In this document: positions 4,658-28,154 of the stretch, in pieces
Layout: the number at the start of each line of letters is the position of its first letter
How positions within the stretch are numbered: the stretch's first letter is position 1
Origin: Candidatus Krumholzibacteriia bacterium
GTDB lineage: Bacteria; Krumholzibacteriota; Krumholzibacteriia; LZORAL124-64-63
NCBI GenBank assembly: GCA_050174015.1
Contig: JBFXKG010000004.1
Span: 100,957-164,956 of the forward strand
Reading direction: 5' to 3'
Length of the DNA stretch: 64,000 bases
Position numbers and translations under genes: made by a program
The notes under the pieces: model-generated
Told to the model about the DNA's origin: nothing
The model's database searches: none
The model's input: the letters and a program-made list of their open reading frames with translations, nothing else

Positions 4658-5518
4658 TCAGAGGGGTTTCCGGTAACAGGCCGGCAGGACGTACCTGTAC
4701 AGGCCGCCGTCCCGGTTGATCGTCTCGGAATGGCCGATGAAGAGGTAGCCGCCCGGAACCGTGTTGTCGGCGAACTTCTCGACAAGCTTGGCCCGGGTGG
4801 GGTTGTCGAAGTAGATCATGACGTTACGGCAGAAGATCGCGTCGAACGGGCTGCGGAACCTGAACACCCGGTTCATGAGGTTGTGGCGTCGGAAGTGGAC
4901 CAGGGTGCGGATGGGGTCCCCGACGCGGTACATTCCGCCCGGCTGCTTGATCAGGTAGCGGTTCTTCAGGGCGGGGGGCAGCTTGGACACCGCATCATGG
5001 GGGTAGATGGCCGCCTGGGCCTTTTGCAGGGCCTTCATGGAGATGTCGGTCGCCAGCAGGACCGGCTTCAGACGGGCTCCGGACGCCGCCAGGGCTTCCG
5101 CCATGAGCATCATCAGCGTGTACGGTTCCTCCCCCGTGGAGCATCCCGCGCACCAGACCCGGAGTTCGGGGTCGCCCGCGGCCGTCCTCCGCCTGATGGC
5201 CTCGGGCAGGACCGTGGCGGCGAAATGGTCGAAGTGCTCGTGCTCCCGGTTGAAGTAGGTGTGGTTGGTCGAGATGCGATCGGCCAGTTCGCTCAGGGCT
5301 TCCCCGCTGGGATCCCCCTGGACCCAGTGCAGGTAGTCCCCGAACGTCGAGAACCCCCGCAACCGGAGCACCTTCTGCAGGCGCCCCACCACGAGGGTCT
5401 TCTTCTGCGAGCTGAGTGATATCCCGAAGTTCTCGTAGACCAGACGCCGGACGGCGTCGAACTCCCGGTCCGAGATCCGCGACTCCACGGGCGCGGTGAG
5501 GGTGTCCTGGGGGCTCAT
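4658..5518 (-). CDS. cheR: chemotaxis protein methyltransferase CheR
   Basis: Start trimmed to MSPQDTLTAPVESRISDREFDAVRRLVYENFGISL. SAM-MTase motifs (VWCAGCSTGEEPYTL) and CheR C-terminal region. Its ATG shares one base with the cheY stop (TGATG). Confidence 0.85.
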   Translation of the reverse strand: MSPQDTLTAPVESRISDREFDAVRRLVYENFGISLSSQKKTLVVGRLQKVLRLRGFSTFGDYLHWVQGDPSGEALSELADRISTNHTYFNREHEHFDHFAATVLPEAIRRRTAAGDPELRVWCAGCSTGEEPYTLMMLMAEALAASGARLKPVLLATDISMKALQKAQAAIYPHDAVSKLPPALKNRYLIKQPGGMYRVGDPIRTLVHFRRHNLMNRVFRFRSPFDAIFCRNVMIYFDNPTRAKLVEKFADNTVPGGYLFIGHSETINRDGGLYRYVLPACYRKPL

Positions 5519-17712: not shown

Positions 17713-17741
17713 CCGGAATTCCATTCCAGGATCCGGAACGG
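17713..17741. promoter_or_regulatory. palindromic TTCCGGAA-type motif upstream of atp operon (site A)
   Basis: CCGGAATTCC-ATTCCAGGATCCGGAACGG; shares the ATTCC...TCCGGAACG pattern with sites at 21527 and 21820. Lies between the upstream terminator (17867-17895) and the atpI start. Confidence 0.25.
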
Positions 17742-17866
17742 CGCCGGGATATGATTCTCAAGCCCCGATGGGGAACAGCGGACGGACATTCGGAACGGTC
17801 ATCCTGGCCACATCGATCATCGAAATGAAATTATTGATTCCAAAGGGTTTGAACGAACGCCGCCGC

Positions 17867-17895
17867 AAAAAGGGGCCGCCCCGAAGGGCGGCCCC
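17867..17895 (-). terminator. Rho-independent terminator after the tandem-AAA gene
   Basis: Perfect 10-bp stem GGGGCCGCCC / GGGCGGCCCC with CGAA loop (17872-17895), followed on the minus strand by UUUUU (plus-strand A-run 17867-17871); 40 nt after the stop at 17934. Confidence 0.7.
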
Positions 17896-17933: not shown

Positions 17934-20147
17934 TCAGAAGCCCACCACCCTGACGGGTCCGGCCGCCCGATGCTTGAGGGCCACCTCCTCCTCCAGGAGG
18001 GCCAGGAGATCGGCGTGCGTCGTCCGGCGGACCCCCTGCATCCGGAGGTTGCGCCGGATCAAGGCCATGTCGGCGGCCGTCAACGGGTCGAGGGCGCACA
18101 ATCGCCGCCTTTCCTCGGCCGAAGGGGCGCCCGGAGCCAGGGGCGCCAGCAGCCGGTCGTAGGTGGCCTCGATCCCCGCCGGCTCCAGGGGTCGGAACTC
18201 GACCTTCAGGGCGAACCTGCGCAGGGCGGCCGGATCCAGGGCGTCCAGCCGGTTGGTGGTGCAGATGACGGCCCCGTGATGCTGTTCGATCTGCACGAGC
18301 AGTTCGTTCACCATGCTGATTTCCCAGGTACGCCGGGAACGGCTGCGGGACGCCAGGAAGGTGTCGACCTCGTCGATCACCAGGACCGCCCCGGTCGCCG
18401 CGGCCTCGGCGAAGGCCTTCGCGAGGTTGCGCTCGGTCATGCCCACGTAGGGGTCGAGGATCTCGCTGGCCTTGCGCGTGACCACCGGGCGGCCCGCCGC
18501 GGCAGCCAGGTACCCTGCCGTCAGGGTCTTGCCGGTTCCCGGCTGGCCGTGGAAGAGCATGGCCAGGGCTCCCCGCTCGCCGGCCACGGCCGACTTGTCC
18601 AGATCCTTGACGTACCGGACCATCTGGCGGATCAGCGCCCGCAGGGGCCGCGAGGGATTCACCCCGCACTCGAGGAACTCGACGGCGGGCCCCTTGCGGA
18701 CCTCGACCCGGCGCTTGACCCCCTGCAGCCCCGCCTGGGCTTCGAGAGTCCTGCCAAAGGCCTCGCGACAGGCCCGCGGGGTGGTCTGGATCCCCGACGC
18801 CACCCTGGCGGCCATGGCGAACACCGCCGGAGCCAGGGTGAACTCCCCGGCCAGCCTGGTCACCTCCGCGGCGGTGAAGTGCCTCTTGATGCGGTGCCGC
18901 CGGAGGATTCCGTCGAGCATCGCCGCCCGCTTTTCCCCGTCCAGGGGAGGCAACTCCAGGCTGTAGGCGAACCGGCGCCTGACCGCCGGATCGATGCCGT
19001 CGTGTTCGTTGACGATCCAGATGCCCCGCGAGCCGGGCAGTTCCAGGATCCCGTTGAGGTAGCCCTTGTCCATCACTTCACCCCGGTGGAACCAGGGGCG
19101 GTCGGTGTTGAGCAGCTGGTCGGCCTCGTCCACGAAGACGAGAGCTCCCGCCTGTCCCGCCGCCATTTCCAGGCAGGCGGCCAGGGCGGCACGGCGGGCC
19201 CGGGCCTCGTTCTGGCGCTGGCCCAGCACCTCGAACCCCCGCAGTCCCAGTTCCGCGCACATGGCGCGGCACAGGGTGGTCTTGCCGGTGCCCGGAGGTC
19301 CGTAGACCAGGATGTGCACCGGGGCGTCCCCTCCGGAGGTCAACAGGAGCCGCATCAGGTCGAGCTTGCCCGTCTCGATTCCGAGGTCGTCGGCCGCCAA
19401 AGCGGATCCGGGAACCGGGCGGAAGAGTTCCTGCCTCGCGGGCGCCTGATCGGGATCGGCGAAGAACGGCAGGAATTCCTCGCTGATCTGCAGCCACTTG
19501 CGGTCGGTGTCGAGGATGCCCATGCCGGCCAGCTTGCCTCCCAGGACCGTCCCCATTTCCGCGGGAGCCAGTCCCAGGGCGGTGACCAGGCCGTCCCTGC
19601 CCCGGGGCTCGTCGCAGTGGAGGTGGTTCTCGAAGAAGTCCTGGACCGGTTCCCACCAGCGCATCGCCGTGAAGAAGAAACAGAACTCGGTCTCCTGCTC
19701 GGAAAGCCCGAACAGCCGGCGGGTCCCATCGAGATGCCGGGCCAGCGGCGAGGCCTGGAAACGGTCCCTGCCGGCGGCCCACCCGGTCAGGCGGTCGGAC
19801 AGGGTCGAGGCCAGACGCTGGAGACGGGCCGGAGGGGCCCCGTTGTGGACCACCGAGACCACCGACGCCATGTCCTGGGGGTCTCCCCAGGCCCGGCGCA
19901 GGTCGGGCAGCAGGCGGTCCCGGTCGGTGTCGCTCAGCAGGTCGTCCACCAGGGTCTGGGTTCCCGCCGGATCGACCCCGGCGACCCAGAAGGCGAACCC
20001 GAGGGTTTCCCGGTCGATGGTGCGCCGGCGGGCGACCGTGCGGGCGGCCCACTCCGCACAGGCGCAGAGAGTGAACTGGAGGTTGGCATCGGGATTTCCG
20101 GGTGTCTTCTCCTTCCGCTTGCGGGCTCGGGCGTAGAATCGCGTCAT
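17934..20147 (-). CDS. tandem AAA+ ATPase (two classical AAA modules) with about 300-aa N-terminal domain of unknown function
   Basis: Start trimmed to MTRFYARARKRK with strong RBS aaggagattgcccATG. AAA1: Walker A GPPGTGKTT, Walker B ALVFVDEADQL, Arg finger AVRRRF. AAA2: Walker A GQPGTGKTL, Walker B VLVIDEVDTF, Arg finger AALRRF. 737 aa. Confidence 0.8.
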   Translation of the reverse strand: MTRFYARARKRKEKTPGNPDANLQFTLCACAEWAARTVARRRTIDRETLGFAFWVAGVDPAGTQTLVDDLLSDTDRDRLLPDLRRAWGDPQDMASVVSVVHNGAPPARLQRLASTLSDRLTGWAAGRDRFQASPLARHLDGTRRLFGLSEQETEFCFFFTAMRWWEPVQDFFENHLHCDEPRGRDGLVTALGLAPAEMGTVLGGKLAGMGILDTDRKWLQISEEFLPFFADPDQAPARQELFRPVPGSALAADDLGIETGKLDLMRLLLTSGGDAPVHILVYGPPGTGKTTLCRAMCAELGLRGFEVLGQRQNEARARRAALAACLEMAAGQAGALVFVDEADQLLNTDRPWFHRGEVMDKGYLNGILELPGSRGIWIVNEHDGIDPAVRRRFAYSLELPPLDGEKRAAMLDGILRRHRIKRHFTAAEVTRLAGEFTLAPAVFAMAARVASGIQTTPRACREAFGRTLEAQAGLQGVKRRVEVRKGPAVEFLECGVNPSRPLRALIRQMVRYVKDLDKSAVAGERGALAMLFHGQPGTGKTLTAGYLAAAAGRPVVTRKASEILDPYVGMTERNLAKAFAEAAATGAVLVIDEVDTFLASRSRSRRTWEISMVNELLVQIEQHHGAVICTTNRLDALDPAALRRFALKVEFRPLEPAGIEATYDRLLAPLAPGAPSAEERRRLCALDPLTAADMALIRRNLRMQGVRRTTHADLLALLEEEVALKHRAAGPVRVVGF

Positions 20148-20192
20148 GGGCAATCTCCTTTCGGATCGGTTGATGCCGAATCTAACCCGAAA

Positions 20193-20212
20193 CCGTTCCA
20201 AATTTCGGAACG
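20193..20212. promoter_or_regulatory. inverted repeat CGTTCC-N7-GGAACG upstream of the AAA+ gene (site B)
   Basis: CCGTTCCAAATTTCGGAACG, 45-65 nt upstream of the ATG at 20147 and downstream of the WYL-gene terminator. Shares the CGGAACG half-site with sites C and D. Confidence 0.3.
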
Positions 20213-20249
20213 ATCGGTCAGTGGCCGGATCGACCGGAAAGGAATGCCC

Positions 20250-20279
20250 AAAAAAAGGCCCGGCGGGGAGAGCCGGGCC
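20250..20279 (-). terminator. Rho-independent terminator between the WYL regulator gene and the AAA+ gene
   Basis: 8-bp stem GGCCCGGC / GCCGGGCC with 7-nt loop (20257-20279), followed on the minus strand by seven U (plus-strand A-run 20250-20256). Confidence 0.7.
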
Positions 20280-20464
20280 AGATGAGCAATCCGTTTGCAC
20301 GGATCAGTTCCGACCGTTTAGCGAATTGTTTTACGTGGCTGCAAGCAATTCGGCTCCAAATCACCACGGGGCGGCGGGGCCCCCAGGTCCGGGTTTCCAC
20401 ATCCGACCGGTCAACACGATAACAAATCCTCCTCGAAATGTCAAGCGAAATCAATTCAAGTCGT

Positions 20465-21457
20465 TTATTTATAATATTTTACAGTTTCGGCCAATTCCGC
20501 CTGGAGCCGCTCGACCAGGGCCTTGGGGGCCAGCAACCGCGCACTGGATCCGAGGCTCAGGATCCAGGCCATGACCTCCGGCTCGCTGGTGGACGTGAAG
20601 GCGACCTCGATCCGGCCGTTCTTCTTCTCCCGGATGGTCTGGTCCGGGTTCAACTTCCGCTCGGCGGTGAAGTTCGCGGCCCATCCCCACAGCTCGGCCT
20701 TCACCTTGAAGGTCTTGCCCTTGATCACCCCGAAATGCGTGTTGAACACCTTGTCGAAGTCGTAGTCGGTCACCGGCTTGAACGGCGTGTCGGTCAGGGC
20801 GACCCCCGCGAACCGGTGCAGGGCGAACAGCGGATCGTAGCCCGGATTCCTGAACACCCGGTCGGGCATCTTGGCGTAGCGGGCGTGCACGTAGATGGTC
20901 TCGTGGTGCGAGAAGATCTTCAGGGGCTTGATCCGGAAGACCTTCGGCTCCTTGTCCTGAAGGCGCCGGTAGGCGACCTCGCAGACCCGGTGCTGCTCCA
21001 GCCCCTGGACCAGGGTGCTGAGATTCCCGTAATGCGGGGTGTAGTCGATGACCCCGGGACGGTAAACGCCGAAGGCGCTGCGGTCGGGATCCCGTCCGCC
21101 CTGGTGCAGCCTCGCCGTCTTGTCCACGGCGCGCATGGCCGCGGTGAAGTGCTCGCGCCCCAGCAGATGGCTGGTGAAGGCCCGGCACATCAGCAGCACC
21201 TCCAGTTCGTCGTCCGTCAAGGGCAGCGTCGCCTTGGGCCGGCGCGCCCGCGGGATGCGGTAGAAGCTCCGGTTGCCCTTGGGCACCCGTTCGATGCCGG
21301 TCCCCCCCTCGTCCAGGTCCGCGACCAGGCGCAGGACCGTCTGCTTGCTGCATTGCAGGCGTGAGCTGAGTTCGGTGAGGGAATACTCCCGGTCGTTGAA
21401 AAGGAGCATGGCGTAGAGCTCGAGCAGGCGGGACCCGGGGGAGATGCCGGCTGTCAT
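20465..21457 (-). CDS. HTH-WYL-WCX transcriptional regulator (PafBC/DriD/BrxR-like)
   Basis: Start trimmed to MTAGISPGSRLLELYAMLL (cat at 21455-21457). N-terminal wHTH (YSLTELSSRLQCSKQTVLRLVADL). Middle WYL-like segment (KPLKIFSHHETIYVHARY ... FALHRFAGV, an IYV variant of the WYL triad). C-terminal extension of about 100 aa. Confidence 0.8.
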   Translation of the reverse strand: MTAGISPGSRLLELYAMLLFNDREYSLTELSSRLQCSKQTVLRLVADLDEGGTGIERVPKGNRSFYRIPRARRPKATLPLTDDELEVLLMCRAFTSHLLGREHFTAAMRAVDKTARLHQGGRDPDRSAFGVYRPGVIDYTPHYGNLSTLVQGLEQHRVCEVAYRRLQDKEPKVFRIKPLKIFSHHETIYVHARYAKMPDRVFRNPGYDPLFALHRFAGVALTDTPFKPVTDYDFDKVFNTHFGVIKGKTFKVKAELWGWAANFTAERKLNPDQTIREKKNGRIEVAFTSTSEPEVMAWILSLGSSARLLAPKALVERLQAELAETVKYYK

Positions 21458-21526
21458 GGGGCGTCCTTTCACGGAGGGGATTCGGTGCCGCCTCGATTCT
21501 CCAGCAGCCGGCAGGATCCCGCAAGA

Positions 21527-21546
21527 CCATTCCGGATACCGGAACG
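21527..21546. promoter_or_regulatory. palindrome ATTCCGG-ATA-CCGGAACG upstream of the WYL regulator (site C)
   Basis: cATTCCGGATACCGGAACGc; arms TTCCGG / CCGGAA with 3-nt spacer, 70-90 nt upstream of the WYL ATG. Candidate autoregulatory operator. Confidence 0.35.
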
Positions 21547-21819
21547 CAAAGACGATCAGGCCCGGCGGACCAACGGTCCGCCGGGCCGCCGCATCGGAAG
21601 GCTCGCCCAACCTTCCTCCACGGTCACCGGACCCGGATCAGGGCTCCAGGGTCAGGTCGATGGTCACCTTGGCGATGCCCGGCCTGCGGCCTCATCACGG
21701 GCCTTCCTGATCTCGATCACGTTCATGCCTTCTCCTCCGGTCGATTGTTCCGATGCTGTCGGCAATCATACCCCGGACCCGACGATCTATTTGCCAGGAT
21801 GTCGATAATAGCGGCGGGT

Positions 21820-21840
21820 CATTCCGGAATCCGGAACGAC
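21820..21840. promoter_or_regulatory. second copy of the ATTCCGGAATCCGGAACG palindrome (site D)
   Basis: cATTCCGGAATCCGGAACGa, near-identical to site C, about 365 nt upstream of the WYL ATG in the 467-nt intergenic region after the phosphoesterase gene. Confidence 0.3.
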
Positions 21841-21924
21841 AGGGCCGGAAAGCGGCGTCCACCGGGCCCAAGGGAGACGGACAGGGTCCCTTGGCGCGAA
21901 TCCTTCGACCCGGGCGGAGCCGGG

Positions 21925-22905
21925 CTACCCGGTCCGATCATGACAGGACGTGGTGAAATGGGCGTCGGATAGACTCTCGCCCGGCCGATGGGTGTAGGCC
22001 GCGAGGCACCCGTCCCCGGCCACCGAATAGTCCAGGCAGACCACGTTGTGCGCCTGGATCTCCGGCTTTCCCTTCAGCCAGTAATGGCCGAAGAAAACCG
22101 GGGGATCCGCTGCGGGATAGCCGGGGTTGCCCAGCTCCAGCGCCCTGGAATCCTCGAGGGGAGCGTCGGGAACCCCGGCCATCGACCCGGGCGGGAAGAG
22201 CATGGTGCGGTAGGTCGGATCCTCGGGGATGAGGAACCAGCGGACCCTGATGGCCCGCCGGGGATGGCCGTCCTTGTCCAGAGCCGGTCGCGCCCCTGCC
22301 GGAAGCGGCGCTTCCTTGCCCTTGAGCAGCCATTCCGTCGCCTGGAAGAGAGCGTTCCCGGGACCGGGCGGGATCAGCGCGGCCGCCATGAACCCGTCGG
22401 TGACGCCTCCGTGCTGGGCGAGGGCGGCGTCCACGGCCCGGACCGCACCGGGATCCCAGCAGGCATGGACCACGCGCAAATGCTCGCTGGCGAGGTAGAG
22501 TGGCAGGGTGCGGAACCAGTCCAGCCAGTGGTCCGGCACCGTCCGTCCTCCCAGCTGATCGAGGGTGTGGCGGACCTGGCTCTCGTTCCGGGGGGAATGG
22601 CTCCTCAGGTACCGGCCTTCATGGACGGTCGCATAGGCGATGGCGTTGAACTCGTGGTTGCCCATCAAGGCGTAGGCGTTCCCGGCCTCCACCATCGCGC
22701 GGACGATCTCCAGGGTCTCGAGGATCTCCGGACCCCTGTCGATGAAATCCCCCACGAACACCGCCTTGCGGTCGGAATCGCCATGGCGGAATCCCAGGCC
22801 CGCCCGCTCGTAACCGAGTTTCCCCAGGAGTTCCCGGAGCCGCAGCGCGTGGCCGTGGACGTCCCCGATGATGTCGTAGCAGGAATGGTGGGGTAGCATC
22901 GCCAT
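21925..22905 (-). CDS. metallophosphoesterase, ApaH/PrpE-like (diadenosine tetraphosphatase / PPP-family phosphatase fold)
   Basis: DIIGDVHGH, GDFIDRGP, GNHE calcineurin-like motifs; 326 aa; start MAMLPHH (cat at 22903-22905). Confidence 0.8.
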   Translation of the reverse strand: MAMLPHHSCYDIIGDVHGHALRLRELLGKLGYERAGLGFRHGDSDRKAVFVGDFIDRGPEILETLEIVRAMVEAGNAYALMGNHEFNAIAYATVHEGRYLRSHSPRNESQVRHTLDQLGGRTVPDHWLDWFRTLPLYLASEHLRVVHACWDPGAVRAVDAALAQHGGVTDGFMAAALIPPGPGNALFQATEWLLKGKEAPLPAGARPALDKDGHPRRAIRVRWFLIPEDPTYRTMLFPPGSMAGVPDAPLEDSRALELGNPGYPAADPPVFFGHYWLKGKPEIQAHNVVCLDYSVAGDGCLAAYTHRPGESLSDAHFTTSCHDRTG

Positions 22906-23068: not shown

Positions 23069-23216
23069 TAAAGGAAAAGAGGGATCACCAACCACCTATT
23101 TCGAGGCCGACCCGGACCGGGTTGCTCGAAAGGCACGATATCGCCGACGGCCAGGCGGCTGGACACCCTGGCCATGGTGGAGGTGCTCGGAGACCTCATG
23201 GCCAGGGTGTGACCGG

Positions 23217-23780
23217 TCATTCCTCTTCGGGAGCGAACGCCGCGGCCAGCTTGTCCTGGACGAGGCCGTAGGTCTCCTCGATCCGGTCCGACGTTTCCCC
23301 CTGGAGCATACCCAGGCCCGCCAGCGCGTCCTTGGCCCTGCGGAACCCATCCTCGATTCCCCGGCGGATCTCCGCCTCGAACCTGTTCAGGGTCTCCGTC
23401 TCGTCCTGGCCGGCATTCAGCCCCTTGTAATGGGGAAAGAACCCGAGAGCGAAGCCGAGCACCCTTTCGGCCACGGCCTCGGGCGAGGTGTCCAGGCCGA
23501 TGGAGAAGCTGTCCTCGGGCTTCTTCCCTTCAGGTCCCACGGCTTCCTTATCTCCCGACGGAAAGGCGTCCCGGAGGCTTTCCTCCAGCTCCTTCCTGAG
23601 CAGGGCGAGGCCACCGTCCTCGAGGATGCTCAGGGCCAGTTCCTCGCCGTGGGCCCGGGCCGGGCCGGCGCCCCCGCGAAGGTAGGCGCTCGTGCGTTCA
23701 TCCGAGGATGTCGTCTTCTGGGGATCCTGGGCCTTCTTGACAGGCGAAAGGCCCGGTAGGTTTGATATGGGGTTCGCCAT
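23217..23780 (-). CDS. hypothetical acidic protein (187 aa)
   Basis: Start trimmed to MANPISNLPG with strong RBS ttcaaggagggagagccATG. No recognised family. Confidence 0.55.
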   Translation of the reverse strand: MANPISNLPGLSPVKKAQDPQKTTSSDERTSAYLRGGAGPARAHGEELALSILEDGGLALLRKELEESLRDAFPSGDKEAVGPEGKKPEDSFSIGLDTSPEAVAERVLGFALGFFPHYKGLNAGQDETETLNRFEAEIRRGIEDGFRRAKDALAGLGMLQGETSDRIEETYGLVQDKLAAAFAPEEE

Positions 23781-24274
23781 GGCTCTCCCTCCTTGAAAGG
23801 AGCCTATGGGGTGGGGCGATGGTTTCGCACCATATATAAAATATCGGCATGATATTGATTTTCTTGAAGGAAATCTCCCCAGGGGAGGCGCAACGCGGTC
23901 GAGGCCTCCGGCGGGGGCTGGGTCCCGGTGGCCGCGGACCCTGGATGTGCGGCAGGTCACGAGGAAGAGGCGGTTCGAGGGGCGGCCGGGCCCCCCGGGG
24001 GACCTAAAACCCTGAAATGGGCCTCAAATCGCTGGTTTAGGGCCGTTTTTCGGAAATCCCCCCCCAGTCCCGCAGGTCGTGGAACACTGGACGGGCGAAC
24101 GGATGGAACCGGGGCGGATGGGTCTGGCGCATGACGCCCAGGCCTCGCCGCCACCCCTCATCCGAGCATATCGTCACACGCATGGTTTCTTCGCCTTGGA
24201 GAGATCCCCGCGGATGTGGCACACTCCCCATCGGCCGGAAACCCATCCTCCAGGACCCTCCAGGAGCGCCAGGC

Positions 24275-25336
24275 ATGACCCCCAAGCCCCGATTCCTCAA
24301 GGCGGCCAGCTTCGCCGCCGGCCTCGTCATCGGCCTCGTCCTCATCACCGCCGGCTGCGGCCCCGACCGGAAGGAGACACCCCCCGCCGAGCCATCTTCC
24401 GCGGCCCTGCGACCCTTCCGTCCCTTCAGCGGCGACCGCTGGATCGGCAACGCCGTCTGCTACGGCCCCCACCGGGACGGGCAGCGGCCCGGCGGCCCCG
24501 GCCCCACCGCCGCCCAAATCCGGGAGGACCTGGACCTGATGCTCCCGCACTGGAACCTGCTGCGGGTGTACGGCGCCACCGGCGCCACCCCCATCCTGCT
24601 CGAGGAGATCCGGCGCGGCGATCTGGACATGAAGGTCGTGCTGGGGGTGTGGATCGCTCCCGAGGAGCACCGCGATCCGGAAGGAACCGTGACCGGCCGC
24701 GACCCTGAAGCCGCGGCCGCCAACCGGCGCGAGGTCTGGGCCGCCATCGACCTGGCGAACCGGTACCCCGATCTCGTCGTGGCGGTCTGCGTCGGCAACG
24801 AGACCCAGGTCTCCTGGTCGGCCCACCGCAGTCCGCTGGACATCCTCATCGGCCACGTGCGGACGGTGAGGTCCGCCGTCTCCGTCCCCGTCACCGTCGC
24901 CGACGACTTCAACTTCTGGAACAAGCCGGAAAGCCGTGAACTGGCCGGCGAGCTGGACTTCATCACCATGCACGCCCACCCGATGTGGAACGGGCTGCAG
25001 CTGGACGGCGCGCTTCCCTGGCTGCAGGAGCAGGTGAAGGCGGTCCAGGCTTTTCACCCGGACCGCCCGGTGATCCTGGGGGAGACGGGCTGGGCCACCT
25101 CCGTCCACGACGAGGGGGAACAGGCCACGCTGATCAAGGGAGCCGCGGGCGAGCAGGAACAGAAGACGTTCTTCGCGGAGGTCCGCGCCTGGGCGGAGCA
25201 CGACCGGCTTCCGGTGTTCTTCTTCGAGGCGTTCGACGAGAACTGGAAGGGTGGCGATCATCCCGCCGAGGTCGAGAAGCACTGGGGGGTGTTCCGGGCG
25301 GACCGGACGCCCAAGGCGGCGGTCAAGGGGTCCTGA
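24275..25336 (+). CDS. glycoside hydrolase family 17-like lipoprotein (beta-glucanase-like TIM barrel)
   Basis: Start trimmed to MTPKPRFLKAASFAAGLVIGLVLITAGCG (lipobox), RBS ccaggagcgccaggcATG. Two catalytic-Glu contexts typical of GH17 (CVGNETQ and ILGETGWATS). Confidence 0.6.
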   Translation: MTPKPRFLKAASFAAGLVIGLVLITAGCGPDRKETPPAEPSSAALRPFRPFSGDRWIGNAVCYGPHRDGQRPGGPGPTAAQIREDLDLMLPHWNLLRVYGATGATPILLEEIRRGDLDMKVVLGVWIAPEEHRDPEGTVTGRDPEAAAANRREVWAAIDLANRYPDLVVAVCVGNETQVSWSAHRSPLDILIGHVRTVRSAVSVPVTVADDFNFWNKPESRELAGELDFITMHAHPMWNGLQLDGALPWLQEQVKAVQAFHPDRPVILGETGWATSVHDEGEQATLIKGAAGEQEQKTFFAEVRAWAEHDRLPVFFFEAFDENWKGGDHPAEVEKHWGVFRADRTPKAAVKGS

Positions 25337-25475
25337 CCCGTTCACCGGGACGCGCTCCGCGGGCGGGCCATGCCTCGCCTCCTGCCGGGATTTCGGCGCC
25401 ACCCCGGCCCTTCCGCCGGGGATTCATGCTATCATTGTCTTCTGGTGCCACCTGCTCCCTCCTGAAAGGTCCGAC

Positions 25476-28154
25476 TTGAACCCGCTTCAGCTCATCCCGT
25501 CACAGCTCCACGCCCGCTGGGCCCTGCTTCTTCTGATCATGCTGGCGATCCCCGGTCCGGTGGCCTTCGCAGGTGGCCAGGACGTCGCCGACGAGGTCTT
25601 CTACCACTACATGCCCATCTGCTGGCGCGACTCGGACAACGACGCCTACCGGTTCGGCGACTTCGGCGGCATGACCGCCGCCCTGCCCTACCTGACGGAA
25701 CTGGGCGTGACCGCCATCTGGATGAACCCCGTGTTCCCATCCCCCGCCTACCACGGCTATCAGCACGGCCGCGCCGACCAGCTGAATCCCTGGTTCGGGA
25801 CCGAGGCCGACTTCATCGCCTTCATCGAGGCCGCCCACGCCGCCGGCATCAAGGTCTTCGTGGACTTCGTGGCCTACGGGATCAGTCACGACTCGCCCTG
25901 GTACCAGGACGCCTACGGCCATCCCGGCAGTGTGTACGACGACTGGCTGGCCTTCACCAACCCGGCCAACACCGAGTCCTGGGGATCGACCTACAACACC
26001 TGGAACGGTGCGACGGTGGGGCACGTCTGGTGGGACCTGCGCGACTCCGGCCCGGTCGGCTTGGTCACCCAGTGGGCGCAATACTGGTTGGATCCCGACG
26101 GCGACGGCGACTTCGGCGACGGGCTGGACGGCTACCGGCTGGACCACGTCTGGAAGACCTATCCCAACGGGCCCGACGGCTGGGGCTACCACGTCGACAC
26201 CTTCTGGGCCCCGTGGCGCGACGCTTTGCGCGCGGTGAACCCCGACGTCTTCGTCTTCGCCGAGCAGGCCGACTGGGGCAGCCAGGGCGTCGAGCTGCTG
26301 GCCGGACTCGACGCCGCCTTCACCAAGCCCTTCGAGTTCGCCGCCCGCGACGCCCTGCGCTGGGAATTCGCATCCGCACTTTACGACGGGATGGCTGCAG
26401 CCACCGCCGCCCTGAACGGTTCGCCCCATCCCGGCACCCTGATGACCACCATCGGCAACCACGACGTGGATCGCCTGGCCACCAGTATCGGGGACGATTT
26501 CGCCAGGGGGAAGGCCGCCGCCGCGGTGCTGCTGACCCAGCCCTTCACGCCGGTCATCTACCACGGGGACGAGTTCGGGATGCGCGGCGCCAAGAACACT
26601 TCCTACAGCGGGGACGCCGCCGACATCCCCATGCGCGAGCCCTTCAAGTGGAACGCCGTGGCCGGCCCGCCCATGAGCGACTACGACGTCTTGAACGCCG
26701 CGGCCTTCGCCGGGCGCATCGCCCAGGACAACGACGGCCGCAGCGTCGAGGAACAGTTGAACGTCCCCGGCAGCCTGCTCGAGGCCTACCGCGAGCTGAT
26801 CGCGGTCCGCAAGGGCAACGTGGCCCTGCGGCGCGGCGGCTACCACCCCGTGACCGCCGACGACGGCGGCGTCTGGGCCTTCGTCCGCGCCCATGACGAC
26901 CAGCAGGCGCTGGTCGTGATCAACGTCACCGGCAACGCCCGCAGCTTCAGCCTGGACCTGGGCGGGTACGCCATCCCCGGCGGATCGACCCAGCCCGTCG
27001 ACCTGCTGGGCGGTCCTGCGCCCGCGCAGTTGACCGACGCCAACAAGGGCGACTATCCCCTGTCCCTAGGTGCCTTCGGGTACGCCGTCTACGAGCTTTC
27101 GGTGGATCCCCCCGCTCCGCCGGCGGTCATCGCCGACGGGCGCAACGTCCCCGGCGATTTCGTTCCCCACGCAGCCCTCGCCACCCAGGACGGACCCACC
27201 CATCTCGGCGACAACGTCTCGGAGCTGGACCAGCTGTTCGCCCGCATCTCGGACGACTCGCTCTTCGTCGGCATCACCGGGAACCTCGCCACCGACGGCA
27301 CCGGTCTCGCCCTGCTGATCGACGCCGCCCCCGGAGGCCAGACCACCCTGGACACGAGCACGCTGTCGCCCCCGCCCTCGGGCCCCCAGCACTTGACCGG
27401 CCTGCGCCTCGACCCGGGTTTCGAGCCCGAGACCATGATGTTCATCAACGCCTACTCGGGGACCATCTACGCCGACAGGGTCGAGTTACCCTCCGGGTCC
27501 GGCGCCGTCAAATCCTACGTCGGGCAGGGGATCGTCGGCAGCGGCAACGGCCTCCTCACCGGCGGGTCGAATCCCGGCGACATCCGGGTCGCCCTCGACA
27601 ACTCCAACACTTCGGGCGTGACCGGCAGCAGCGTCGCCGACGCGGGCGCCGCCGTCACCGGCTTCGAGCTCTTCCTGTCCCTGGCGGACCTGGGTCACGC
27701 GGGCGGCCCGGTGAGGCTGGCCGCCTTCATCCTCGAGACCAGCGGGGACGTGAGCAACCAGTGGCTGCCCCCCCTGGGCGGAGTGACGGGATCGCTGGGG
27801 ATCGCCCCCGACCTGACGACCTTTCCGGGATCGCAATTCGCCGAGCTGGATGGAGCCTCCGGGGTCGGCCTGCCTGCCGTGAATGGCCTCGAAGCAAGCG
27901 CACAGGCGACGGGCGAGGGCGCGGTCTTCCGTTTCACGCTGGTGGAATCGGGGCCCGTGACCCTGGCCATCCACGATCTGCGCGGCCGGGAAGTTTGTCG
28001 TCTTCTGGATGGGATCATACGCCCGGCGGGGCGGCGGAGCGCGTTCTGGGACGGCCGCTCCGGCGGCGGCCGTCCCGTGGCGTCGGGCGTTTACCTCTTC
28101 CGGCTGGAGGCCGGAGGGATGATTGCGACCGGACGGGTGGCCCTGGTGCGTTAG
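25476..28154 (+). CDS. GH13 alpha-amylase-family glycosidase with C-terminal T9SS-type (Por_Secre_tail / FlgD-Ig-like) sorting domain
   Basis: GH13 regions DGYRLDHVWK (II), FVFAEQ (III), IGNHD (IV). C-terminal approx 80 aa AVFRFTL...GVYLFRLEAGGMIATGRVALVR = TIGR04183-like tail. Start uncertain: TTG at 25476 after GAAAGG gives signal peptide MNPLQLIPSQLHARWALLLLIMLAIPGPVAFA; in-frame ATG alternative at 25539. Confidence 0.8.
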   Translation: MNPLQLIPSQLHARWALLLLIMLAIPGPVAFAGGQDVADEVFYHYMPICWRDSDNDAYRFGDFGGMTAALPYLTELGVTAIWMNPVFPSPAYHGYQHGRADQLNPWFGTEADFIAFIEAAHAAGIKVFVDFVAYGISHDSPWYQDAYGHPGSVYDDWLAFTNPANTESWGSTYNTWNGATVGHVWWDLRDSGPVGLVTQWAQYWLDPDGDGDFGDGLDGYRLDHVWKTYPNGPDGWGYHVDTFWAPWRDALRAVNPDVFVFAEQADWGSQGVELLAGLDAAFTKPFEFAARDALRWEFASALYDGMAAATAALNGSPHPGTLMTTIGNHDVDRLATSIGDDFARGKAAAAVLLTQPFTPVIYHGDEFGMRGAKNTSYSGDAADIPMREPFKWNAVAGPPMSDYDVLNAAAFAGRIAQDNDGRSVEEQLNVPGSLLEAYRELIAVRKGNVALRRGGYHPVTADDGGVWAFVRAHDDQQALVVINVTGNARSFSLDLGGYAIPGGSTQPVDLLGGPAPAQLTDANKGDYPLSLGAFGYAVYELSVDPPAPPAVIADGRNVPGDFVPHAALATQDGPTHLGDNVSELDQLFARISDDSLFVGITGNLATDGTGLALLIDAAPGGQTTLDTSTLSPPPSGPQHLTGLRLDPGFEPETMMFINAYSGTIYADRVELPSGSGAVKSYVGQGIVGSGNGLLTGGSNPGDIRVALDNSNTSGVTGSSVADAGAAVTGFELFLSLADLGHAGGPVRLAAFILETSGDVSNQWLPPLGGVTGSLGIAPDLTTFPGSQFAELDGASGVGLPAVNGLEASAQATGEGAVFRFTLVESGPVTLAIHDLRGREVCRLLDGIIRPAGRRSAFWDGRSGGGRPVASGVYLFRLEAGGMIATGRVALVR

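What the first reader, a model, noticed from the sequence alone, without database searches (positions are those of the whole stretch)
17934..21860. WYL-family regulator next to a 737-aa tandem-AAA+ ATPase: candidate uncharacterised two-gene module
An HTH-WYL-WCX regulator (20465-21457) lies directly upstream, on the same strand, of a large protein (17934-20147) with two classical AAA modules. Each module has Walker A/B motifs and an RRF Arg finger, and the protein carries a 300-aa N-terminal domain with no recognisable family. WYL regulators (PafBC, DriD, BrxR/CapW) typically sit beside and control DNA-damage or anti-phage modules. Tandem classical-clade AAA proteins are rare in bacteria. The two genes are separate transcription units: a strong intrinsic terminator at 20250-20279 sits between them, and another at 17867-17895 follows the AAA gene. 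Each gene carries its own palindromic operator-like element (CGTTCC-N7-GGAACG before the AAA gene; ATTCCGG-N3-CCGGAACG before the WYL gene). The pair is wedged between the ATP-synthase operon and a glycoside-hydrolase block, as expected for an accessory or defence-island insertion.
Basis: partly seen in the sequence, partly recalled or inferred. Interest (0 to 1): 0.7.

Follow-up and report, generated by a model that had tools for sequence, protein, structure and literature searches.

The report
WYL-controlled tandem-AAA module with SAM riboswitch
A WYL-type sensor/transcription factor and a rare p97-like double ATPase form a conserved, undescribed stress- or defence-type gene module found across several bacterial phyla, and in this genome a SAM riboswitch has been added in front of the ATPase gene.

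Summary

Three things change the picture.

1. The pairing is conserved. A specific WYL subfamily lies within 1.5 kb of the AAA gene in 20 of 28 independently fetched homologue loci. These span at least five phyla and one plasmid, in every orientation.

2. The palindromes belong to a rigid composite promoter, CGTTCC-N7-GGAAYG-N9-TAnnnT. It occurs four times in this window and nowhere else in 64 kb. It is present in front of AAA or WYL genes in more than 20 loci. It places GGA at about -26, as at PafBC and SiwR activator sites.

3. The "terminator between the genes" follows a bona fide SAM-II riboswitch (Rfam 56.9 bits, gathering score 36) that has its own sigma-70-type promoter. It is most likely the riboswitch's expression platform. 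This element exists only in this narrow Krumholzibacteria lineage.

The ATPase is Cdc48-like. Its 255-aa N-domain (a helical bundle plus a winged helix) is found only in this family. Frequent partners are a DUF2779 nuclease, which is deleted in this window, and a calcineurin-like phosphoesterase.

My best reading is a nucleic-acid-damage- or infection-inducible protein-remodelling module. The function has not been tested.

The parts
17934..20147 (-). Tandem classical AAA+ ATPase, 737 aa. N-domain is residues 1-255 (19383-20147), D1 is about residues 268-470 and D2 about 500-728. The C-terminal Gly-Phe is nearly invariant.
   Evidence: AlphaFold model pLDDT 86.8; the best PDB matches are Cdc48, Rix7, NVL and AFG2. 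D2 has a YVG pore loop (V568 and G569 invariant). D1 has no aromatic pore loop.
19383..20147 (-). Family-specific N-terminal domain: a helical bundle (residues 20-175) plus a winged helix (about 181-222).
20465..21457 (-). HTH-WYL-WCX transcription factor, 330 aa.
   Evidence: Pfam. PADLOC WYL models. 646 homologues, many 42-72% identical. Only weak PDB similarity, to DriD and PafC.
20194..20212 (-). Operator O3, CGTTCC-N7-GGAACG, in front of the AAA gene. It is followed 9 nt later by a -10-like TAGATT (20179-20184). The AGGAG ribosome-binding site is at 20155-20159.
   Evidence: The same composite element lies upstream of AAA genes in 16 other loci. It is invariant between the window and L001 while its flanks vary.
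21528..21546 (-). Operator O2, 71 nt upstream of the WYL start codon, with no good -10 beside it.
   Evidence: It aligns with a degenerate site in L002.
21820..21838 (-). Operator O1, with a -10-like TATTAT (21805-21810) 9 nt downstream. This is the likely main autoregulated promoter of the WYL transcript.
   Evidence: Equivalent sites in L002, L087 and L089 lie upstream of a small ORF plus the WYL gene.
17722..17740 (-). Operator-like site O4, downstream of the AAA terminator and upstream of the atpI-like ORF. Its role is unexplained.
   Evidence: It is conserved in L001. On the + strand a TATGAT lies 9 nt away (17750-17755).
20416..20444 (-). Sigma-70-type promoter TTGACA-17-TATCGT with an upstream TG, just after the WYL stop codon.
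   Evidence: In L001 the -35, the TG and the -10 (TAACAT) are kept while much of the spacer is substituted.
20298..20377 (-). SAM-II (SAM_alpha, RF00521) riboswitch aptamer.
   Evidence: 56.9 bits against a gathering score of 36, E = 2.9e-11, full model length 1-79. It is the only Rfam hit in the whole window. L001 scores 57.5 bits.
20250..20308 (-). Putative expression platform: a GNRA hairpin (20288-20305), then the intrinsic terminator (stem 20257-20279, U7 at 20250-20256).
   Evidence: The left arm of the terminator (20273-20284) is complementary to the 5' leader CCGGUCGGAUG (20400-20410) and to the aptamer tail CGGUCGGA, so an alternative antiterminator pairing is possible. One A-to-G change in L001 keeps the hairpin pair as G-U.
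17867..17895 (-). Intrinsic terminator of the AAA gene.
   Evidence: (10 GC pairs plus a T-run).
21925..22905 (-). Calcineurin-like phosphoesterase (related to the Pnkp phosphatase domain, PrpE and ApaH), a recurrent neighbour of the pair.
   Evidence: Pfam Metallophos and NCBIfam. It holds the same position in L001, L002, L087 and L089. A Metallophos_2 gene sits between WYL and AAA in L007, and a Metallophos gene is present in L095.

Best explanation
This is a conserved regulon, not a chance neighbourhood.

Regulator. A WYL homodimer binds the 19-bp palindrome CGTTCC-N7-GGAAYG, which replaces the -35 element of a fixed composite promoter. The palindrome ends 9 nt before TAnnnT, so GGA sits at about -26. 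From there the WYL protein controls its own gene and the adjacent tandem-AAA gene. I infer that it acts mainly as a ligand-switched activator in the manner of PafBC, SiwR and DriD. The WYL domain would sense a nucleic-acid-derived signal, such as ssDNA or a related damage or infection product.

Effector. The induced product is a hexameric, Cdc48/p97-like type-II AAA+ unfoldase. It would thread a protein substrate through the canonical YVG pore loop of D2. D1 lacks a pore loop, so it would assemble or regulate the ring. The family-specific N-domain (helical bundle plus winged helix) would choose the target or dock on nucleic acid. I infer that the job is to extract or remodel proteins in the context of damaged or foreign nucleic acid, together with the frequent partners: a DUF2779 Cas4-like/RNase-H-like nuclease (lost in this window) and a calcineurin-like phosphoesterase.

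Second input in this lineage only. A constitutive-looking promoter drives a SAM-II riboswitch followed by a terminator, 103 nt upstream of the AAA start codon. When SAM is plentiful these transcripts should stop. When SAM is low they should read through into the AAA gene independently of WYL.

What is shown: the gene pairing, the conserved motif and its spacing, the domain content and the riboswitch identity. What is inferred: activator versus repressor, the ligand, the substrate and the polarity of the riboswitch.
For: Pairing.
- WYL lies within 1.5 kb of the AAA gene in 20 of 28 loci that were fetched through the AAA protein.
- The hosts are Krumholzibacteria-like, Desulfobacterota, Acidobacteriota, Bacteroidales and Synergistota genomes, plus a Desulfosarcina plasmid.
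- The WYL gene is found upstream, divergent and downstream of the AAA gene.
- Two of four loci fetched through WYL homologues also carry the AAA gene.

Operator.
- Four sites lie in the window; none of 100 shuffles reached this count.
- The same palindrome sits in the WYL/AAA intergenic region in more than 20 loci.
- TAnnnT starts exactly 9 nt after the palindrome in 20 of 23 sites, against about 1 in 64 expected by chance.
- No -35 consensus occupies the -35 position.
- Stand-alone WYL genes (L093, L094) carry the palindrome too, which indicates autoregulation.
- A GGA at -26 is required for activation by the homodimeric WYL factor SiwR, and PafBC also binds at -26 (PMC10693628 section 12).

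ATPase. Both modules have invariant Walker A/B, sensor-1 Asn and Arg-Arg. Foldseek and phmmer give Cdc48, VAT, NVL and Rix7 as the top matches.

Neighbours.
- DUF2779 nuclease in 12 loci.
- Metallophos in WIN, L001, L002, L007, L087, L089 and L095.
- Y-family polymerase, RecQ and UvrD-PDDEXK.
- BrxA/BREX in L014 and L007.
- ARG, DSP-phosphatase and ARPP-1.

Riboswitch. The promoter hexamers are conserved while the spacer has diverged. No gene lies between the terminator and the AAA gene.
Against: - There are no experimental data for any member.
- Palindromic operators in divergent intergenic regions are also typical of the repressors CapW and BrxR, so the sign of regulation is open.
- The neighbours are heterogeneous and none except WYL is near-universal.
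- The WYL subfamily (646 hits) is far larger than the AAA family (about 120 clusters). Two of four sampled WYL homologues have no AAA neighbour. WYL may therefore run a wider regulon of which AAA is only one target.
- The riboswitch occurs only in the window and in the L001/L124 lineage. Those sequences are nearly identical (96% mean column identity over the WYL-AAA intergenic region), so there is no covariation support for the expression platform.
- In the thermodynamic fold the terminator forms regardless.
- O3 and the AAA gene's own -10 lie downstream of the terminator, so the riboswitch unit could be an orphan small RNA.
- SAM has no obvious link to the proposed function. The only hints are a MetK-fusion operon in L005 and a methyltransferase-like gene plus DUF1848 in L048.
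Confidence: 0.5

Rival explanations
1. This is a dedicated anti-phage (abortive-infection-type) module. The WYL protein is a BrxR/CapW-like repressor that keeps a toxic or costly AAA+ effector silent until infection. The ATPase is the effector, analogous to IetA.
For: - The best PADLOC and NCBIfam hits of the ATPase are IetA/IteA.
- In L014 the WYL gene sits exactly where brxR sits, upstream of brxA and a 1182-aa gene. BrxA is also near the pair in L007.
- Neighbours include PIN, Fic, transposases and PF09820 ATPases, and one copy is on a plasmid.
- The family is patchily distributed across phyla.
- A palindromic operator in divergent intergenic regions is also what CapW and BrxR use.
Against: - The IetA score is far below the cut-off (114 against 510) and covers only D2. 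No IetS protease is adjacent.
- No PADLOC system is matched.
- The position next to the atp operon is stable in four genomes whose AAA proteins are only 55% identical.
- The promoters lack a -35 element and carry the -26 geometry of activators.
- No phage carries the family.
Confidence: 0.25
2. This is a peripheral component of the ARG-centred systems that Iyer et al. 2022 predicted to reverse viral ADP-ribosylation. WYL would sense ADP-ribose-derived ligands, and the AAA+ unfoldase would be the "chaperone" for modified proteins.
For: - L095 has ARG-Metallophos-DUF2779 next to WYL and AAA.
- L012 and L013 have DSP-phosphatase, ARG and GGACT directly upstream of AAA-WYL.
- L003 has ARPP-1. L005 has ARG nearby.
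- The paper lists WYL transcription factors, calcineurin-like phosphatases, REase-fold nucleases, helicases and chaperones as parts of these systems (PMC9503650 section 3.8).
Against: - There is no ARG, rhodanese-phosphatase or ARPP gene in this window or in most loci.
- The paper mentions neither an AAA ATPase nor DUF2779.
- The association is seen in only 4-5 of about 30 loci.
Confidence: 0.12
3. The SAM-II element is an orphan riboswitch or small-RNA unit (promoter, aptamer, terminator), or a relic of a lost methionine gene. It would have no regulatory effect on the AAA gene, which would be driven only from the O3 promoter.
For: - O3 and a properly spaced -10 lie downstream of the terminator, exactly as in relatives that have no riboswitch (L002, L087, L089, L090).
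- The element is confined to one narrow lineage.
- The terminator is strong and forms in the minimum-free-energy fold regardless.
- The Shine-Dalgarno-like part of the SAM-II consensus is missing.
Against: - The element has the same orientation as the AAA gene, and the terminator ends only about 100 nt upstream of its start, with no intervening ORF.
- The promoter hexamers and the aptamer are conserved between the window and L001 while the promoter spacer has diverged.
- Sequences complementary to the left arm of the terminator exist in the leader and in the aptamer tail, as expected for an antiterminator.
Confidence: 0.35
4. The ATPase is a housekeeping chaperone tied to the neighbouring ATP-synthase operon, for example an assembly factor.
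For: It is adjacent to the atp operon in the window, L001, L002, L087 and L089. Site O4 lies upstream of the atpI-like ORF.
Against: In L090/L091 and in every other phylum the pair lies elsewhere. The atp link is limited to one clade. The family is rare.
Confidence: 0.03

Closest known systems
PafBC, SiwR and DriD (WYL-domain activators of SOS-independent DNA-damage responses)
   Same: They share the HTH-WYL-WCX architecture. Their binding site sits immediately upstream of the -10 with GGA at about -26 and no -35 element. They control adjacent genes. The weak best PDB sequence matches are to DriD and PafC (PMC10693628; PMC8635444).
   Different: The sequence relationship is only marginal (E about 0.05-0.3). 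The operator here is a full 19-bp palindrome, whereas PafBC uses a half-site. Ligand and sign of regulation are untested. The target gene is an AAA+ unfoldase, not a repair enzyme or DinB-like gene.
BrxR and CapW (WYL repressors of BREX and CBASS)
   Same: They are homodimeric WYL factors that bind palindromes next to the genes they control. In L014 and L007 this WYL subfamily sits beside BREX genes.
   Different: There are no PDB hits to BrxR or CapW structures at E <= 1. There is no BREX or CBASS system in this window. The promoter geometry suggests activation.
Cdc48/p97/VAT, NVL/Rix7 and AFG2 (type-II classical AAA+ unfoldases)
   Same: They have two stacked classical AAA modules, an SRH with Arg-Arg, and an aromatic-hydrophobic-Gly pore loop in D2. 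They give the best structural and sequence matches.
   Different: There is no double-psi-barrel CDC48_N domain. The N-domain here is a unique helical bundle plus winged helix. D1 lacks a pore loop. TIGR01243 scores 88 bits against a cut-off of 803. The protein ends in a conserved Gly-Phe rather than HbYX.
IetA/IteA of the IetAS anti-phage system
   Same: It is the best hit in the defence-protein libraries, and D2 shares the classical AAA module with the RRF motif.
   Different: IetA has a single AAA module. The score is 114 bits against a cut-off of 510. No IetS protease partner is present.
SAM-II riboswitch (metA/metX leaders of Alphaproteobacteria and Bacteroidota)
   Same: It is a full-length match to RF00521 above the gathering score, with the conserved core GUGAUUUG...GCUUGCAGCCACGU...UCGCUAAA.
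   Different: The downstream gene is an AAA+ ATPase, not a methionine or SAM gene. The Shine-Dalgarno part of the consensus is replaced, and an intrinsic terminator follows, so control would be transcriptional rather than translational. The host is a Krumholzibacteria-like genome. The usual gene associations and phyla are from my own knowledge.
ARG-centred anti-ADP-ribosylation systems (Iyer, Burroughs, Anantharaman and Aravind 2022)
   Same: They share a WYL transcription factor, a calcineurin-like phosphatase, an REase-fold nuclease and helicases, and occasionally ARG, R-P phosphatase and ARPP-1 in relatives.
   Different: ARG, the defining enzyme, is absent here and in most loci. The AAA+ ATPase and DUF2779 are not part of the published description.

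Membership tests
WYL-domain transcription factors (HTH-WYL-WCX) | An N-terminal HTH, a central WYL domain and a C-terminal WCX domain | tested here: met
   Pfam: HTH_11 24.0 bits (E = 3.7e-5, just under the gathering score of 25), WYL 28.8 (above 21.8), WCX 41.9 (above 23.9). PADLOC WYL models give E = 9.5e-21.
WYL-domain transcription factors (HTH-WYL-WCX) | Sequence-specific binding to an operator beside the regulated genes | not testable with these tools
   Indirect evidence only. The conserved palindrome co-occurs with the WYL gene in more than 20 loci, including stand-alone WYL genes.
WYL-domain transcription factors (HTH-WYL-WCX) | Ligand (ssDNA, RNA or nucleotide) binding by the WYL domain switches activity | not testable with these tools
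   Inferred from PafBC, DriD and SiwR (PMC11804915, PMC9186387, PMC10693628).
Classical-clade AAA+ ATPase, type II (Cdc48-like) | Two PF00004 modules, each with Walker A, Walker B, sensor 1 and SRH arginines | tested here: met
   Two PF00004 stretches. The motifs are invariant in 41 sequences. Foldseek aligns 540-580 columns to Cdc48, Rix7 and NVL.
CDC48 family proper (TIGR01243) | The family model score is reached and a CDC48_N double-psi-barrel N-domain is present | tested here: not met
   88 bits against a cut-off of 803. No PF02359 or PF02933 domain. The N-domain is helical plus a winged helix.
IetA/IteA (IetAS defence system) | The equivalog score is reached and an adjacent IetS serine protease is present | tested here: not met
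   114 bits against 510. No protease gene lies next to the pair.
SAM-II riboswitch (RF00521) | The covariance-model score reaches the gathering threshold over the full model | tested here: met
   56.9 bits against 36, model positions 1-79. L001 scores 57.5 bits.
SAM-II riboswitch (RF00521) | SAM binding, and ligand-dependent control of the downstream gene | not testable with these tools
   Only the architecture is seen: promoter, aptamer, hairpin, terminator and alternative pairings.
ARG-centred anti-ADP-ribosylation system (PMC9503650) | An ADP-ribosylglycohydrolase gene at the core of the neighbourhood | tested here: not met
   tblastn with two ARG proteins finds nothing in the window. ARG is present only in L012, L013 and L095, and nearby in L005.
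BREX with BrxR | The WYL gene lies directly upstream of brxA-brxB-brxC-pglX... | tested here: not met
   There are no BREX genes in the window neighbourhood. BrxA is seen only in L014 and L007.

The most novel reading that the evidence does not exclude
The AAA+ unfoldase is under two independent sensory inputs: a nucleic-acid-sensing WYL factor and a SAM-II riboswitch. The riboswitch would serve as a metabolite guard. When the SAM pool collapses (for example through a phage SAM lyase that disarms SAM-dependent BREX or R-M, or through severe methionine stress), termination would be relieved and a p97-like segregase would be made without any need for the WYL signal. This would be the first riboswitch-gated stress or immune effector, and the first functional lead for a bacterial Cdc48-like family that has its own N-domain and a DUF2779 nuclease partner.
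Probability: 0.12. Interest if true: 0.85.

Novelty: new variant of a known kind. Interest (0 to 1): 0.62.

Why it matters
WYL factors are emerging as the bacterial sensors that couple nucleic-acid damage or infection to gene expression. Few of their effector genes are understood.

This work defines a compact, cross-phylum module with four features:
- a precisely specified composite promoter, which gives a ready-made motif for finding regulons;
- a rare p97-like double-ring ATPase whose N-domain occurs nowhere else;
- a recurrent uncharacterised nuclease, DUF2779;
- in one lineage, a SAM riboswitch controlling a gene with no known link to sulfur or methyl metabolism.

Each feature is directly testable: by EMSA, reporter assays, in-line probing and substrate trapping. 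The results could reveal a bacterial counterpart of Cdc48-type protein extraction in DNA repair or immunity.

Tried and rejected
- A universal third partner. I clustered all flanking ORFs of 87 loci and ran phmmer with 17 neighbour proteins. Only WYL, and then DUF2779, recur widely. Everything else (ARG, PTPase, GGACT, ARPP-1, Fic, the MetK fusion, DUF7663, DUF1848, RecQ) is lineage-specific.
- A general SAM link. Rfam scans of 28 further homologue loci found no riboswitch of any class. A metagenome scan for a SAM-II tail plus the operator returned 66 stretches, of which 65 were chance matches and one (L124) was the L001 variant. The MetK-fusion operon (L005) is a single case.
- Known defence systems. 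PADLOC gave only sub-threshold IetA and TRIP13 hits.
- Phage origin. There is no full-length homologue in 50,697 phage records.
- The longer 788-aa ORF from the GTG at 20300. I rejected it because homologues start at the ATG, a strong ribosome-binding site precedes the ATG, and the extension would encode the terminator hairpin.
- My first greedy ORF caller failed in high-GC loci because of antisense shadow ORFs. I replaced it with a rule based on GC3 being higher than GC1.
- The Comamonadaceae subfamily (L024-L086, about 30% identity). It has no adjacent WYL gene except in L061 and L062, so I left it out of the statistics.
- Literature searches for WYL with AAA or Cdc48, for SAM-II with AAA, and for DUF2779 found no description of this module.

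Full report
**1. What is in the sequence**

On the minus strand the window carries, in order of transcription:
- a calcineurin-like phosphoesterase (21925-22905);
- a 330-aa HTH-WYL-WCX regulator (20465-21457);
- a 737-aa protein with two PF00004 AAA modules (17934-20147);
- the atp operon.

The longest AAA ORF reaches a GTG at 20300. The ATG at 20147 is the real start: it has an AGGAG ribosome-binding site, and all homologues are 727-753 aa and align from residue 1. Both palindromes are present. GC content of the region is ordinary.

**2. The palindromes are one motif, present four times and part of a fixed promoter**

Both elements fit CGTTCC-N7-GGAAYG. Searching that pattern gives four sites: 21820-21838, 21528-21546, 20194-20212 and 17722-17740. 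All are intergenic and all lie between 17.7 and 21.9 kb. The remaining ~60 kb has none, and no shuffle of 100 reached this count.

In relatives the same palindrome lies in the WYL/AAA intergenic region or just upstream of the AAA start. I found it in L001, L002, L003, L007, L008, L011-L015, L048, L087, L089, L090, L092, L095 and L096. It also lies upstream of stand-alone WYL genes in L093 and L094.

In 20 of 23 such sites a TAnnnT hexamer begins exactly 9 nt after the palindrome. About 1 in 64 would be expected by chance. With the -10 at -12 to -7, the proximal half-site GGAAYG spans -27 to -22. The palindrome therefore covers the place of the -35 element, and no -35 consensus is seen.

A GGA triplet at -26 is what the homodimeric WYL factor SiwR needs for activation. 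PafBC also binds at -26 for "sigma adaptation" (PMC10693628 section 12; PMC8635444). In divergent arrangements (L092, L095, L096) one palindrome serves a -10 on each side.

In the window, O3 (20194-20212, -10 TAGATT at 20179-20184) serves the AAA gene. O1 (21820-21838, -10 TATTAT at 21805-21810) most likely serves the WYL transcript. O2 and O4 have no properly placed -10 on the gene strand.

**3. The pairing of the two genes is conserved**

The AAA protein defines a family with full-length homologues at 30-56% identity. I fetched loci through the AAA protein in three ways: encoding contigs, a scan of one genome per species and the plasmid collection.

An HMM built from the neighbouring WYL proteins finds a closely related WYL gene (more than 300 bits) within 1.5 kb of the AAA gene in 20 of 28 distinct loci of the close subfamily. 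The WYL gene lies upstream on the same strand, divergent, or downstream.

The hosts are:
- Krumholzibacteria-like genomes (a cluster member is named so);
- Desulfobacterales, Syntrophaceae and Desulfovibrio;
- Acidobacteriota;
- Bacteroidales;
- Synergistaceae;
- a Desulfosarcina plasmid.

A WYL gene also sits beside a more distant Nitrospira homologue (L081), outside the 28. Three of the eight loci without WYL end within about 1 kb of the AAA gene.

A more distant subfamily (L024-L086, mostly Comamonadaceae, about 30% identity) has no adjacent WYL gene except in L061 and L062.

In the other direction the WYL subfamily is larger: 646 hits, many at 42-55% identity. Of four WYL homologues sampled, two have the AAA gene next door and two do not. 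AAA therefore nearly always comes with this WYL, but WYL does not always come with AAA.

**4. Other recurrent neighbours**

- DUF2779 (a Cas4-like PD-(D/E)XK domain plus an RNase-H-like domain). It is adjacent in 12 loci. It is cleanly missing from the window: 60 bp (23095-23155) replace the 1.6 kb that carry it in the relative L001, whose AAA protein is 95% identical.
- A calcineurin-like phosphoesterase. It recurs in WIN, L001, L002, L087, L089, L007 and L095.
- Lineage-specific neighbours:
  - BrxA plus a 1182-aa gene directly downstream of WYL (L014), and BrxA near the pair in L007;
  - DSP-phosphatase, ADP-ribosylglycohydrolase, GGACT and UvrD-PDDEXK (L012, L013);
  - ARPP-1 (L003), Fic (L016) and RecQ (L023);
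  - a MetK fusion plus DUF7663 in one overlapping operon with AAA (L005);
  - a methyltransferase-like gene plus DUF1848 (L048);
  - a Y-family polymerase and Tn3 on the plasmid.
- L095 (Gemmatimonadales) unites ARG, Metallophos, DUF2779, WYL and AAA.

This mixture overlaps with the ARG-centred systems that Iyer et al. predicted to counter viral ADP-ribosylation. That paper mentions neither an AAA ATPase nor DUF2779, and ARG is absent from the window.

**5. The ATPase**

With a 41-sequence alignment the AlphaFold model is confident (pLDDT 86.8). Foldseek and phmmer place it with Cdc48/p97, VAT, NVL/Rix7 and AFG2.

Both modules keep Walker A, Walker B, a sensor-1 Asn and an Arg-Arg pair. D2 has a canonical pore loop, P-Y-V-G, with V568 and G569 invariant. 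D1 has none. The last two residues, Gly-Phe, are nearly invariant and lie in a low-confidence tail. That pattern is reminiscent of docking tails, but this is speculation.

Family models are not reached: CDC48 scores 88 against 803, and IteA 114 against 510.

**6. The unexpected element: a SAM-II riboswitch**

An Rfam scan gives SAM_alpha (RF00521) at 20298-20377 on the gene strand. The score is 56.9 bits against a gathering score of 36, over the full model length. It is the only Rfam hit in the window.

Immediately upstream, after the WYL stop codon, lies TTGACA-17-TATCGT with a TG (20444-20416).

In L001 the -35, the TG and the -10 are kept while much of the spacer has changed. The aptamer core is identical, and one hairpin change is A-U to G-U.

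The Shine-Dalgarno-like part of the SAM-II consensus is absent. Control, if any, would therefore act through termination.

Folding the nascent leader shows that the left arm of the terminator (20273-20284) can instead pair with the 5' leader (20400-20410). The aptamer tail contains the same CGGUCGGA sequence. This is a plausible antiterminator, but it is not proven.

No other homologue locus has any riboswitch. A metagenome scan found only the L001 variant again. The element is therefore a recent, lineage-specific addition, inserted between the WYL stop codon and the ancestral O3 promoter. I read it as a second, SAM-gated route to AAA expression. The rival reading, that it is an orphan small-RNA unit, remains substantial.

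**7. Interpretation**

It is better described as a WYL regulon with:
- a defined composite promoter;
- a Cdc48-like unfoldase as the constant target;
- a DUF2779 nuclease and a phosphoesterase as frequent companions.

Four lines of evidence favour a nucleic-acid-damage-inducible module in which WYL acts as an activator:
- the promoter geometry;
- the weak affinity to DriD and PafC;
- the repair-type neighbours;
- the stable chromosomal position in Krumholzibacteria.

The BREX, ARG, PIN, Fic, transposon and plasmid contexts keep an anti-phage role open. The two are not exclusive, because WYL factors link both responses.

The claims of two cleanly separate transcription units and of a recent island insertion are not supported.

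**8. Novelty**

I found no description of this module in the searchable literature or in PADLOC, NCBIfam or Pfam as a system.

The kind of system, a WYL factor plus an adjacent effector, is known. Four things are new:
- the effector family;
- its N-domain;
- the exact promoter grammar;
- the SAM-II association.

Noticed in passing
window 23095-23155 (compare L001 5553-7146): The DUF2779 nuclease gene accompanies the WYL/AAA pair in 12 loci, including the relative L001 (AAA protein 95% identical). In this window it is cleanly deleted, and 60 bp replace 1.6 kb.
   Followed up: yes
window about 21640-21800 (-); L002 1493-1675; L089 3412-3591: A 59-60-aa ORF lies between the phosphoesterase and WYL genes in relatives and ends in the conserved ...VTIDLTLE. 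The window and L001 keep only a frameshifted remnant with the start codon lost. Its function is unknown.
   Followed up: partly
window 17722-17755: A fourth operator copy (O4) sits after the AAA terminator, in front of the atpI-like ORF. It has no -10 on the gene strand. On the + strand a TATGAT lies at the canonical 9-nt spacing and points antisense into the 3' end of the AAA gene. It is conserved in L001 and unexplained.
   Followed up: partly
L005 4420-10226: A homologue 34% identical is the last gene of an overlapping operon. The operon encodes a 765-aa protein (an unknown 380-aa N-terminal region fused to a complete MetK SAM synthetase), a 139-aa protein and DUF7663. A perfect CGTTCC-N7-GGAACG lies inside the MetK-fusion gene (5444-5462). 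This is a second, independent hint of a SAM connection.
   Followed up: partly
L006 8001-15452: Three paralogous tandem-AAA genes of this family (739, 820 and 737 aa) lie in a row beside PF09820 AAA-ATPase_like genes, with no WYL gene.
   Followed up: no
L014 1783-7716; L007 2122-7794: In an Acidobacteriota locus and a Desulfobacterales locus the WYL gene of this subfamily heads a BrxA-containing (BREX-like) gene string, while the AAA gene is transcribed divergently.
   Followed up: partly
window 17934-17942 (C-terminus of the AAA protein): The protein ends in Gly-Phe in at least 90% of family members, on a disordered tail. This may be a docking motif for a partner ring.
   Followed up: no
window 23217-23780 (-) and 24131-28154 (+): A DUF5610 protein, a GH17-like gene and a 967-aa alpha-amylase-family protein flank the module. 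L001 carries the same genes plus a gene with a weak T9SS sorting-domain (Por_Secre_tail) hit. This fits an FCB-group (Krumholzibacteria) host.
   Followed up: no
L092 (NZ_CP087953.1 41974-45319): A cultured organism, Desulfosarcina sp. BuS5, carries the divergent WYL/AAA pair with the operator. The pair is on a 108-kb plasmid next to a Y-family DNA polymerase and a Tn3 transposase. This is a possible experimental entry point.
   Followed up: partly
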